Assembly (NCBI GenBank): GCA_019058445.1
Contig: JAHPZA010000007.1
Location: 20,129-84,128, forward strand
Origin: Promethearchaeota archaeon
GTDB taxonomy: Archaea; Asgardarchaeota; Lokiarchaeia; Sigyniarchaeales; SOKP01
Reading direction: 5' to 3'
Length of the DNA: 64,000 nt
Below, one piece after another: positions 14,193-57,886 of this stretch. Position numbers and translations under genes: made by a program. Below the pieces are notes generated by a model. It did no database searches. It worked only from the letters and a program-made list of their open reading frames with translations, and was not told the DNA's origin. How positions within the stretch are numbered: the first letter of the stretch is position 1; each line of letters begins with the position of its first letter.

Positions 14193-14352
14193 GCAGGGAT
14201 AACCAAGCCTGGTCAACGGTGCCGGACTCTATTGAGATTTATTCTCATAAGCTGGACTCAAGATCTTTAAAAATTAATTTCCGTTGATATACCAACTCTG
14301 ATGAGATATCCGGTCTCATAGGAGTACGTGGGTTCGAATCCCACTCCCTGCA
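14193..14352 (+). tRNA. tRNA-Leu(CAA), two introns (14228-14257 at 32/33; 14263-14307 at 37/38)
   Basis: GCAGGGA/TCCCTGC acceptor stem, long variable arm, GTTCGAAT; two BHB motifs give the mature arm CCGGA-CTCAAGA-TCCGG. Confidence 0.85.
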
Positions 14353-14358
14353 TCTAAT

Positions 14359-14476
14359 GCGGGAATTGCCAAGTCTGGTTAATGGTGTTTTCGAGCTTTT
14401 TCGAAAGCCGACTTGAGGCGCTGGACTTAGAATCCAGTCTTGTAGAAGTTCGGGGGTTCAAATCCCTCTTCCCGCA
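14359..14476 (+). tRNA. tRNA-Leu(TAG) with D-loop intron (~14383-14415)
   Basis: GCGGGAA/TTCCCGC acceptor, CTGGA-CTTAGAA-TCCAG; hairpin insert before the 3' D-strand. Confidence 0.9.
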
Positions 14477-14648
14477 TAAAAATATTAAAAATGATGAGGG
14501 TAATTATTTTCTTGTTTGAAACTCATAATGGAAAATTTTTAATTTCTTAATTGATTTAAACATCTACCTAGCAAACTAGTTAATTATGATTTTTTTAAAG
14601 GAAAAACCTTAGTTAACTATCATTCTAAAATTTGCTGGTATTTACACA

Positions 14649-14753
14649 GCTCTCGTAGTGTAGCTCGGCCAAAGTCTCCTTGATTCCAAAGGTGACAGCG
14701 AGGCATGCTAGGCTTTCACCCTGGTGACCCGGGTTCAAATCCCGGCGAGAGCA
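14649..14753 (+). tRNA. tRNA-Glu(TTC) with D-loop intron (~14673-14702)
   Basis: GCTCTCG/CGAGAGC acceptor, CTAGG-CTTTCAC-CCTGG, CCGGG-TTCAAAT-CCCGG. Confidence 0.9.
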
Positions 14754-14789
14754 TCCAACGCTTTATGCGTTTATGCATTGGAAAACCAA

Positions 14790-14956
14790 GCCTCCGTAGC
14801 TCAGTTAGGTAGAGCACTGAGTATTAATCATGCTCAGCCCGCCCAAAGCACCCGGCTTTCATAATTGATTACCAGTATGACCGGAAGTTAACCGGGCGGT
14901 CGCATGTTCGATCCATTAGTGATTCGAATTCCGATTCGCTGGATAAGCCGGGGGCG
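14790..14956 (+). tRNA. tRNA-Asn(GTT) with three introns (~14813-14846 D-arm; 14858-14886 at 33/34; 14917-14946 at 63/64)
   Basis: GCCTCCG/CGGGGGC-G acceptor; removing the inserts restores CCCGG-CTGTTAA-CCGGG and GCATG-TTCGATC-CATGC. Confidence 0.85.
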
Positions 14957-15128
14957 TACTTTATTCCCTATTGCTTTTTATTTTAAAAATTTGATCTTTC
15001 CTGCACGACCATCATTTTTTCTTTATATATTTTCAAAATATTCAACAATAAATTTTCTACTTAAAAATAGCATAATAACCATTTCAATCGTAAATTTAGA
15101 GATTAATTCGATATTAATAGGTGATTCA

Positions 15129-57362: not shown

Positions 57363-57794
57363 GTGAGTACCATTCAAGAAAAAAAGAACGATGAAGCAAA
57401 AATAATGGCTGGGCTTCTAAGGGCTGGTCATACCATGCTAAATTTGGCTTGTCCCTTATGTAATAATCCTCTTTTTCGAAATAAGGAGAATGATATCTTT
57501 TGTCCAATATGTAATAAAAAAGTTATCATTAAAAAAGAAGATTCATTAGTTAATGAAGGAGAAAATTCAATTAAATCAGAAGATAGAGGTCAAAATTCAA
57601 AAAACATAGATAAACAACGATATTATAATCCTAATACGTTAATCAGAATCATTGAAAATAAAATAAATATGATAACTCAAAAATTAGAACATGAAACTCA
57701 AATGGATATAATTGAAAGATACATAAAGGTTTTGACAAAACTTTTTGATCTTTTAAAAAAATTAAATAATTGTAATGCTTCTGCCGGGATTTGA
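57363..57794 (+). CDS. UPF0148 / Sjogren autoantigen-1 family zinc-ribbon protein
   Basis: MA.LLRAGHTML..ACP.C..PLF...CP.C. Confidence 0.85.
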   Translation: MSTIQEKKNDEAKIMAGLLRAGHTMLNLACPLCNNPLFRNKENDIFCPICNKKVIIKKEDSLVNEGENSIKSEDRGQNSKNIDKQRYYNPNTLIRIIENKINMITQKLEHETQMDIIERYIKVLTKLFDLLKKLNNCNASAGI

Positions 57795-57886
57795 ACCCGG
57801 GTCGCGAGGGTGAGAGCCTCGCATGCGTGGTCCTTTACATCATCTTTAAAAAATTGAAAAGTTTGACCGAACTACACTACAGAAGC
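57776..57886 (-). tRNA. tRNA-Glu(CTC) with 36-nt D-loop intron (57827-57862)
   Basis: GCTTCTG/CAGAAGC acceptor, CGAGG-CTCTCAC-CCTCG; BHB with GGTC/GACC helix. Confidence 0.92.

What the first reader, a model, noticed from the sequence alone, without database searches (positions are those of the whole stretch)
14790..14956. tRNA-Asn with three introns, one inside the T-stem (63/64)
Seen: clean BHB motifs at 33/34 (CCGG/CCGG helix, CT|T and AA|G bulges, TCATA/TATGA) and 63/64 (ATCC/GGAT, AT|T and AA|G, AGTGA/TCGCT), plus a 34-nt D-arm insert with uncertain boundaries. Only removal of all three yields a cloverleaf. Known: multi-intron tRNAs are best known from Thermoproteales; I do not recall 63/64 as a common site. 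Unspliced, the anticodon reads as TTC, so standard tools would probably miss or mis-call the gene.
Basis: seen in the sequence. Interest (0 to 1): 0.7.

Follow-up and report, generated by a model that had tools for sequence, protein, structure and literature searches.

The report
Three-intron tRNA-Asn gene, Asgard archaeon
This is a real asparagine tRNA gene cut into four pieces by three short introns (one inside the T-stem) in an Asgard archaeon, but heavily interrupted tRNA genes in this group have already been described, so it is a good example of a known oddity and not a new one.

Summary
Window 14790-14956 (+) is a tRNA-Asn(GTT) gene with three inserts: 14813-14846 (34 nt, position 22/23), 14858-14886 (29 nt, 33/34) and 14917-14946 (30 nt, 63/64, in the T-stem). 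Removing them gives a 74-nt perfect cloverleaf. It is identical to the exons of one orthologue and one base from an intron-free orthologue.

The 33/34 and 63/64 inserts lie in a 4-bp helix with 3-nt bulges, and these helices covary across about 20 orthologues. The D-arm insert has only a relaxed motif (3 of 4 central pairs). Its boundary is set by comparison with relatives.

ARAGORN and the Rfam tRNA model miss the gene. It is the only tRNA-Asn found in this 4.6-Mb, 31% GC Asgard genome, where about 27 of 31 detected tRNA loci are interrupted.

No RNA data exist, so splicing is inferred. RtcB is present. The catalytic EndA subunit is missing from this assembly but present in same-genus genomes.

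Asgard tRNA genes with up to five inserts, many in the T-arm, are already published (2024, 2026). This is a new member of a known kind.

The parts
14790..14812 (+). Exon 1: tRNA positions 1-22 (acceptor 5' strand, U8 A9, D-stem 5' strand, D-loop with G18 G19, and G22)
   Evidence: Identical to the same positions of the intron-free orthologue L014 and to L022.
14813..14846 (+). Intron 1, 34 nt, D-stem position 22/23. Placements up to 14818-14851 give the same product.
   Evidence: The junction repeat is AGCAC. Only 22/23 gives a BHB register: AGGT 14807-10 with GCCC 14841-44, 3 of 4 pairs, bulges AG|A and AA|A. Orthologues with GCCT or GCTA have 4 of 4 pairs, and that helix is predicted at P 0.48-0.95.
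14847..14857 (+). Exon 2, an 11-nt micro-exon: positions 23-33 (AGC A CCCGG CT)
   Evidence: Conserved in all orthologues while the flanking inserts diverge. It supplies C32 and U33.
14858..14886 (+). Intron 2, 29 nt, position 33/34, immediately 5' of the anticodon
   Evidence: CCGG/CCGG central helix, CT|T and AA|G bulges, TCATA/TATGA inner helix. Across 9 distinct orthologue versions the helices are 100% paired, with 6 positions changed on both sides. The helices appear in the MFE fold.
14887..14916 (+). Exon 3: positions 34-63 (anticodon GTT, anticodon-stem 3' strand, variable region, T-stem 5' strand, T-loop, C61 A62 U63)
   Evidence: 100% blastn match of the mature query.
14917..14946 (+). 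Intron 3, 30 nt, position 63/64 inside the T-stem 3' strand
   Evidence: ATCC/GGAT central helix (4 of 4), AT|T and AA|G bulges, AGTGA/TCGCT inner helix. Across 12 distinct versions of the 30-nt class the helices are 85% paired, with 5 positions changed on both sides. The helices appear in the MFE and centroid folds.
14947..14956 (+). Exon 4: positions 64-73 (G64 C65, acceptor 3' strand, discriminator G73). No CCA is encoded.
   Evidence: The gene is followed by TAC, not CCA.
14762..14776 (+). Two TTTATGC repeats, 28-22 and 20-14 nt upstream of the gene. Possible archaeal TATA-like promoter element (inferred only).
   Evidence: Read directly from the sequence. Not tested.
14960..14984 (+). T-rich tract after the gene (TTTATT, then CTTTTTATTTT). 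Possible oligo-T terminator (inferred only).
   Evidence: Read directly from the sequence. Not tested.

Best explanation
This is the functional, and apparently only, tRNA-Asn(GUU) gene of an Asgard archaeon, transcribed as a 167-nt precursor with three protein-spliced introns. At each exon-intron pair, four exon bases just upstream of the 5' cut pair with four intron bases just upstream of the 3' cut. That places each cut site in a 3-nt bulge, and an intron hairpin stacks on one side (an HBh'-type bulge-helix-bulge motif). A broad-specificity (alpha-beta)2 splicing endonuclease would cut after the second bulge base at all six sites, and RtcB would join the four exons, including an 11-nt micro-exon. 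CCA would be added afterwards. Shown here: the anatomy, the exact match of the joined exons to uninterrupted orthologues, covariation of the 33/34 and 63/64 helices, and the presence of RtcB. Inferred: transcription, cleavage, ligation, order of removal, and how the weak D-arm motif is recognised.
For: The spliced product is a 74-nt perfect cloverleaf called tRNA-Asn(gtt). It equals the exons of L022 exactly and differs from the intron-free L014 at position 26 only. L014 and L015 score 66-68 bits with the Rfam tRNA model and are called Asn(gtt) by ARAGORN. Exons are nearly invariant across orthologues, while the inserts diverge and keep their helices through compensatory changes. The same D-arm + 33/34 + 63/64 architecture recurs in independent assemblies: GTDB genomes and 12 of 12 complete genes on JGI metagenome contigs. 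No other tRNA-Asn was found in the 92.6%-complete genome. About 27 of 31 detected tRNA loci in the genome are interrupted. The pre-tRNA folds well (-62.6 kcal/mol, z = -4.2) and the fold contains the 33/34 and 63/64 helices. RtcB is present. Same-genus genomes carry two EndA paralogues. The alpha type is closest to the Aeropyrum pernix catalytic subunit, with Tyr/His/Lys and the inserted loop region aligned. Asgard EndA is reported as (alpha-beta)2 with the L1 loop that confers broad specificity (PMC5829648).
Against: There is no RNA evidence. The central helix of the D-arm motif has only 3 of 4 pairs, and the folding model gives it probability about 0. The model prefers the native-looking D-stem plus a 6-bp helix between CCGCCC 14839-44 and GGGCGG 14894-99. 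None of the three motifs has a solid exon-side outer helix, so the 3' cut sites are not in closed bulges. The only EndA-family gene in this assembly lacks the catalytic Tyr and His. Public contigs break at the 30-nt exon 3, so the linkage of this exact 5' half to this exact 3' half is not independently confirmed.
Confidence: 0.88

Rival explanations
1. Only the 33/34 and 63/64 inserts are endonuclease introns. The 34-nt D-arm insert is not a substrate: it is either kept (an aberrant or inactive tRNA) or removed by another route or only after other steps.
For: No placement or bulge size gives a 4 of 4 central helix. The predicted probability of the 3-pair helix is 0 in the window type. The 2026 preprint treats such D-arm inserts as 'intervening sequences' and finds only 33% of them at canonical motifs.
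Against: Intron-free orthologues have exactly the sequence obtained by removing the insert. Orthologues with GCCT or GCTA at the same place form a 4 of 4 helix with compensatory change and high predicted probability. A 34-nt insert in the D-stem would destroy the D-arm of the only tRNA-Asn. Relaxed motifs are accepted by loop-bearing (alpha-beta)2 enzymes (PMC5829648).
Confidence: 0.06
2. The gene is a decaying pseudogene, and the working tRNA-Asn lies in the roughly 7% of the genome that is not assembled.
For: The genome is 92.6% complete in 10 contigs. Some relatives (G007, G019, G020, G022) carry two tRNA-Asn copies.
Against: All 74 exon positions are intact and every stem pairs. The helices that flank the cut sites are maintained. 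The gene sits in the conserved Leu-Glu-Asn tRNA cluster, as in relatives. No trace of a second copy was found.
Confidence: 0.04
3. The exact combination seen here is an assembly chimera: the 5' two-thirds and the 3' third come from two co-occurring alleles or paralogues joined across the conserved 30-nt exon 3.
For: Bases 1-122 are 97% identical to one G007 copy and bases 102-167 are 98% identical to the other G007 copy. Logan contigs of the likely source runs break at exon 3, and several variants co-occur in the samples. The window-specific junction was not found in JGI metagenome contigs.
Against: A 30-36 nt shared stretch is shorter than sequencing reads. The assembly is highly contiguous. 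The three-site architecture is common in independent assemblies, so the nature of the feature would not change.
Confidence: 0.05

Closest known systems
[quoted passage not shown] 2024, PMC11291895; census of 90 Asgard genomes, bioRxiv 10.64898/2026.10.13.758758)
   Same: Same superphylum. Most tRNA genes are interrupted, with several inserts per gene (up to five) at non-canonical sites. D-arm inserts are missed by standard tools. T-arm inserts have the cleanest BHB motifs. There is an (alpha-beta)2 EndA background and repeated gain and loss among close relatives.
   Different: This genome's relatives carry NCBI labels such as Promethearchaeota (the Lokiarchaeota lineage), not the focal families of those papers. 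Whether its GTDB family is in their panel could not be checked. The burden here looks lower (roughly 1.2 inserts per detected gene, a minimum estimate), and tRNA-Asn is the extreme case. I could not verify whether those papers list a 63/64 site.
Three-intron tRNA genes of Thermoproteales (for example Pyrobaculum calidifontis tRNA-Glu(UUC) and P. islandicum tRNA-Pro(UGG); Sugahara et al. 2008, as cited in PMC4390854 and PMC4090602)
   Same: Up to three BHB introns per gene at non-canonical sites, including 22/23 and 59/60. Relaxed HBh' motifs. Dependence on a loop-bearing (alpha-beta)2 endonuclease.
   Different: A different phylum, and mesophilic or low-GC sediment organisms rather than hyperthermophiles. 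33/34 and 63/64 are not among the sites listed in the review I could read, but that list is explicitly incomplete.
Non-canonical D- and T-arm tRNA introns of algal nucleomorphs and Cyanidioschyzon merolae (PMC4090602, PMC3728597)
   Same: Multiple ectopic introns, including in the T-arm, with BHB-like determinants in C. merolae.
   Different: Eukaryotic enzymes and mostly much shorter inserts. There is no evolutionary link to this gene.

Membership tests
Archaeal bulge-helix-bulge (BHB) tRNA intron | Central 4-bp helix between exon bases -6 to -3 of the 5' cut and intron bases -6 to -3 of the 3' cut | tested here: met
   Intron 2: CCGG/CCGG, 4 of 4. Intron 3: ATCC/GGAT, 4 of 4.
Archaeal bulge-helix-bulge (BHB) tRNA intron | The same central helix for intron 1 (D-arm) | tested here: not met
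   The best register is AGGT/GCCC, 3 of 4. No 4 of 4 helix exists under any placement or bulge size. This qualifies only as the 'relaxed' class of the 2026 preprint. Orthologues L016, L018 and L019 do meet it.
Archaeal bulge-helix-bulge (BHB) tRNA intron | Two 3-nt bulges on opposite strands, with each cut after the second bulge base | tested here: met
   By register: AG|A and AA|A; CT|T and AA|G; AT|T and AA|G. The 5' bulges are closed on both sides. The 3' bulges are open on the exon side.
Archaeal bulge-helix-bulge (BHB) tRNA intron | At least one flanking helix (h or h') | tested here: met
   An intron-side helix h' is present in all three: 5 bp in introns 2 and 3, and 1 + 6 bp with a 2x2 mismatch in intron 1. 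The exon-side helix h is absent or very short, so the motifs are HBh'-type.
Archaeal bulge-helix-bulge (BHB) tRNA intron | Helices maintained by compensatory change in relatives | tested here: met
   33/34: 100% paired, 6 positions changed on both sides. 63/64: 85% paired, 5 positions. Slid controls: 21-50%. The 22/23 site has only 5 distinct versions and 1 such position.
Archaeal bulge-helix-bulge (BHB) tRNA intron | Removal restores a standard tRNA | tested here: met
   The product equals uninterrupted orthologues.
Archaeal bulge-helix-bulge (BHB) tRNA intron | Cleavage by EndA and ligation by RtcB in the cell | not testable with these tools
   No RNA run holds the locus. By gene content, RtcB is present. 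An EndA beta-like gene is present and the catalytic alpha is not in this assembly, but alpha is present in 8 of 9 same-genus genomes. Both genes that flank alpha in G009 are also missing from G000, which points to an assembly gap.
tRNA-Asn | GUU anticodon in a 7-nt loop with U33 and a purine at 37, and a standard cloverleaf with G18 G19 and a TTCGA T-loop | tested here: met
   After splicing: CU GUU AA loop, 7/4/5/5-bp stems, discriminator G73. Aminoacylation identity was not tested.
Heavily interrupted Asgard tRNA gene set | The host is an Asgard archaeon and most of its tRNA genes carry inserts, often several and at non-canonical sites | tested here: met
   Orthologue-bearing genomes are titled Promethearchaeota, Hod-, Hermod- or Thorarchaeota MAGs. 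My structural scan plus ARAGORN finds about 31 tRNA loci, of which 4 are uninterrupted. Only 16 pass the Rfam cut-off. The scan is ad hoc and incomplete.

The most novel reading that the evidence does not exclude
The window-type D-arm insert may not be an ordinary BHB substrate. Its 3' part forms a 6-bp helix with tRNA positions 41-46 (CCGCCC/GGGCGG, kept as CCACCC/GGGTGG in one orthologue). That helix would lock the precursor in a non-cloverleaf fold, so removal of this insert would need an ordered pathway or a recognition mode of the Asgard endonuclease that has not been described. A related possibility is that the tRNA-Asn locus is an intron-turnover hotspot (six sites among close relatives), with intron-free copies made through cDNA of the mature tRNA, as hinted by their encoded CCA.
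Probability: 0.12. Interest if true: 0.5.

Novelty: new member of a known kind. Interest (0 to 1): 0.3.

Why it matters
The gene is a compact, well-supported test substrate for Asgard tRNA splicing. One 167-nt precursor carries two clean motifs, one degenerate motif, an 11-nt micro-exon and a cut site inside the T-stem. It appears to be the cell's only tRNA-Asn, so all three inserts must be removed accurately. It also shows in practice that ARAGORN and the Rfam tRNA model miss it, which would leave this genome apparently without a tRNA-Asn. The close relatives give a natural series (no insert, one, two, three or four inserts, at six sites) for studying intron gain, loss and sliding. It does not change what is known in principle.

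Tried and rejected
- **RNA evidence:** no RNA holder is listed for the locus. Laying Logan DNA contigs from four runs only showed contigs breaking at the conserved exons, plus variants from co-occurring relatives, including a DNA form lacking introns 1 and 2. That says nothing about splicing.
- **BHB-first genome scan:** relaxed criteria gave about 115 candidates per 300-nt region and still missed intron 1, so I abandoned it. GC-island seeding with 40-nt windows missed the gene. I replaced both with a cloverleaf-driven scan that allows one deletion per arm.
- **Anticodon-arm pattern search for GTT:** unspecific, 227 chance hits. Only the blastn part of that call is used.
- **One large intron from 14818 to 14880:** this alternative reading uses the intron-borne CCGG as the anticodon stem. 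I rejected it because it gives an AAGUUAA loop without U33, and orthologues have CU GUU AA.
- **Placements 23/24 to 27/28 for intron 1:** rejected because they have no helix.
- **Pairing of exon GAGC with intron GCUC 14832-35:** not adjacent to the 3' cut, so rejected.
- **Second EndA-like hit on C3:** it lies in unrelated ORFs with no EndA features (the larger looks like a methyltransferase by eye; no family search was run on it), so I treat it as spurious.
- **Literature on '63/64':** the text search cannot handle the slash. Marck & Grosjean 2003 and Tocchini-Valentini 2011 are not held. I therefore cannot say whether 63/64 has been listed before.
- **Window-specific exon-3 junction:** not found in JGI metagenome contigs.
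- **Not run:** structure prediction, complex prediction and protein database searches were not needed.

Full report
**What is there.** It has a 7-bp acceptor pair (GCCTCCG...CGGGGGC, with discriminator G). It starts with a normal 5' quarter: U8 A9, GCTC, and a D-loop AGTTAGGTA. It contains an anticodon arm and a T-arm that are each broken. Three inserts lie at 14813-14846 (34 nt), 14858-14886 (29 nt) and 14917-14946 (30 nt). Removing them leaves 74 nt that ARAGORN calls tRNA-Asn(gtt). ViennaRNA folds that product as a flawless cloverleaf at -30.8 kcal/mol. In standard numbering the cuts fall at 22/23 (D-stem), 33/34 (just before the anticodon) and 63/64 (T-stem 3' strand). Exon 2 is only 11 nt. 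No CCA is encoded. The unspliced gene is invisible to ARAGORN, with or without its intron mode. It is also invisible to the Rfam tRNA model, even at E up to 10.

**Relatives settle that these are intervening sequences.** A DNA search of 40 related genomes found the gene in 18 of 24 genomes of the same family and in none of 16 genomes from other families of the order. The copies form a natural series:
- L014 and L015 have no insert. They score 66-68 bits with Rfam and are called Asn(gtt) by ARAGORN. L014 differs from my spliced product only at position 26.
- L022 has only a canonical 37/38 intron, and its exons equal my product exactly.
- L011 has only the 63/64 insert.
- L013 and L020 have 37/38 plus 63/64.
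- Many copies have D-arm + 33/34 + 63/64.
- L009, L012 and L053 have four inserts.

Six sites are used in this one gene among close relatives: 18/19, 22/23, 33/34, 37/38, 59/60 and 63/64. An exact-pattern scan of one genome per GTDB species found a base other than G after position 63 of this T-arm in 22 Asgard MAGs. It also gave one chance hit in a bacterium. A scan of JGI metagenome contigs found 14 contigs with both the 33/34 and the 63/64 junctions. All 12 complete genes on those contigs are 167-215 nt, which means three or four inserts each.

**The motifs.** For 33/34 and 63/64 the register is the classical one. Four exon bases ending two before the 5' cut pair with four intron bases ending two before the 3' cut. 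Each cut follows the second base of a 3-nt bulge, and an intron hairpin abuts the central helix.
- In the window these elements are CCGG/CCGG with TCATA/TATGA, and ATCC/GGAT with AGTGA/TCGCT.
- At 33/34, 9 distinct versions are 100% paired, with 6 positions changed on both sides.
- At 63/64 (30-nt class), 12 distinct versions are 85% paired, with 5 such positions.
- Sliding the 3' side by 1-3 nt drops pairing to 21-50%.
- Both sets of helices appear in the minimum-energy and centroid folds of the precursor (-62.6 kcal/mol, z = -4.2).
- The exon-side outer helix is missing or marginal, so these are HBh'-type motifs. They are 'canonical' under the rule of the 2026 preprint: four central pairs plus one flanking helix.

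**The D-arm insert.** Its junction is ambiguous over AGCAC, so six placements are possible. Only 22/23 gives a motif: AGGT 14807-10 with GCCC 14841-44, three pairs plus an A·C mismatch. The bulges are AG|A and AA|A, and the inner helix is interrupted by a 2x2 mismatch. No placement or bulge size gives four pairs. Support for 22/23 comes from orthologues:
- L006, L007, L016 and L018 have GCCT (4 of 4).
- L019 has TGGT/GCTA, a compensatory change, and its sequence restores the conserved GAGC only with a 22/23 join.
- The helix is predicted with probability 0.48-0.95 in L016, L018 and L019.

In the window type, however, the model gives that helix probability 0. It prefers the D-stem built with the upstream GAGC copy, plus a 6-bp helix between CCGCCC 14839-44 and GGGCGG 14894-99. 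Forcing all three motifs costs about 9 kcal/mol. How this insert is recognised is the one open mechanistic point.

**Host and machinery.** The genome is 4.6 Mb, 31% GC, 10 contigs and 92.6% complete. Genomes with the orthologous gene are titled Promethearchaeota, Hod-, Hermod- or Thorarchaeota MAGs, which are Asgard archaea.
- My cloverleaf-driven scan plus ARAGORN found about 31 tRNA loci. Only Lys(CTT), Lys(TTT), Leu(CAG) and Gly(CCC) are uninterrupted. About nine loci have two inserts, and Asn alone has three. The scan allows one insert per arm and needs an intact TTCRA, so these are minimum figures.
- No second tRNA-Asn turned up with blastn-short of the mature sequence, the scan, ARAGORN or Rfam.
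- RtcB is present.
- The single EndA-family gene (C9:770313-770918) has Phe and Ser where Methanocaldococcus jannaschii EndA has the catalytic Tyr and His, so it looks like a beta subunit.
- Relatives almost all have two paralogues. The higher-scoring one is closest to the A. pernix catalytic subunit, with Tyr/His/Lys conserved and the inserted loop region aligned.
- That alpha gene and both genes that flank it in G009 are absent from G000, which points to an assembly gap rather than loss.

**Caveats.** No RNA run holds the locus. Public DNA contigs break at the conserved exons, so they neither prove nor disprove the linkage of this 5' part to this 3' part. The two halves resemble two different copies in G007. 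Splicing, its order and the enzyme's tolerance are therefore inferred from family knowledge (PMC5829648, PMC4090602).

**Comparison and verdict.**
- Three-intron tRNAs have been known from Thermoproteales since 2008 (PMC4390854).
- In 2024, 92-95% of the tRNA genes of three complete Asgard genomes were reported as interrupted, with over half carrying multiple introns (PMC11291895).
- A 2026 preprint catalogues up to five inserts per gene across 90 Asgard genomes. It notes that D-arm inserts are the ones tools miss and that T-arm inserts have the cleanest motifs.

The finding is real and nicely documented, but it is a further member of that known class. The 63/64 site is unusual within this genome, because the other nine T-arm inserts found sit in the T-loop at 57-61. 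It is nevertheless conserved in this gene across many relatives. I could not check whether it has been listed elsewhere.

Noticed in passing
window 14193-14956 (+): The gene is the last of a tight cluster of four interrupted tRNA genes. tRNA-Leu(CAA) lies at about 14193-14352 (two inserts), tRNA-Leu(TAG) at about 14359-14476 (one D-arm insert), and tRNA-Glu(TTC) at 14649-14753 (a roughly 31-nt D-loop insert near 14671-14701), followed by tRNA-Asn. The Leu(TAG)-Glu-Asn order is kept in relatives (L015), where all three genes are uninterrupted.
   Followed up: partly
window 57776-57886 (-): This is the only tRNA in the window that Rfam reports (53 bits). It is a tRNA-Glu(CTC) with a 38-nt D-arm insert. 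ARAGORN in intron mode mis-calls it as Glu(ttc) with an anticodon-loop intron.
   Followed up: partly
G000 C9:770313-770918 (L054:1219-1827); relatives L058-L069: The only EndA-family gene in this assembly lacks the catalytic Tyr and His, so it is beta-like. The catalytic alpha paralogue found in 8 of 9 same-genus genomes is not in the assembly, and neither are its two flanking genes. This probably reflects an assembly gap.
   Followed up: yes
window 14839-14844 with 14894-14899; L009: CCGCCC in the D-arm insert is complementary to GGGCGG (tRNA positions 41-46), and the two pair in the predicted fold. L009 has CCACCC and GGGTGG, a double change that keeps this helix. The helix competes with both the anticodon stem and the insert's own BHB helix.
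   Followed up: partly
L003, L004, L005, L035, L041, L042, L044, L072, L078, L080, L082, L083: Many orthologues carry a 59-60-nt insert at 63/64 that does not form one BHB in register. The first half resembles the 30-nt class (ending ...GCGGGAAA). The second half looks like a second element added at the 3' junction, so this may be a tandem or nested intron.
   Followed up: partly
L014:1473-1549, L015:1488-1564(-): Both intron-free tRNA-Asn orthologues encode CCA, against 2 of 31 interrupted ones. In L015 the neighbouring Glu and Leu genes do not encode CCA. This is a weak hint that introns were lost through cDNA of the mature tRNA. Relatedness among the genomes was not controlled for.
   Followed up: partly
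G000: nine T-arm inserts (tRNA-Val, Arg x2, Asp, Leu x2, Ile, Ser, Asn): All nine are 29-31 nt. Each folds as a 6-9-bp hairpin, eight of nine with a 5-nt loop, and each has a short 3' tail. Yet they are at most 60% identical to one another. They share a common architecture without recent copying. Apart from the Asn insert they sit in the T-loop (57-61), not the T-stem.
   Followed up: partly
L031, L035, L039, L044, L045, L047, L048, L053: In these orthologues the D-arm insert sits in the D-loop (18/19) instead of at 22/23, but it shares the ...TTCGGTGTGC... core with the 22/23 inserts. L039, L045 and L047 also keep a remnant second copy of ...TAGG.CAGAGCA. This suggests intron sliding or a partial duplication.
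   Followed up: no
L009, L012, L053, L071, L079: These are four-insert versions of the same gene. L009 and L012 have two inserts in the T-arm (59/60 and 63/64). The 59/60 insert splits the four bases that the 63/64 motif needs, which would impose an order of removal.
   Followed up: no
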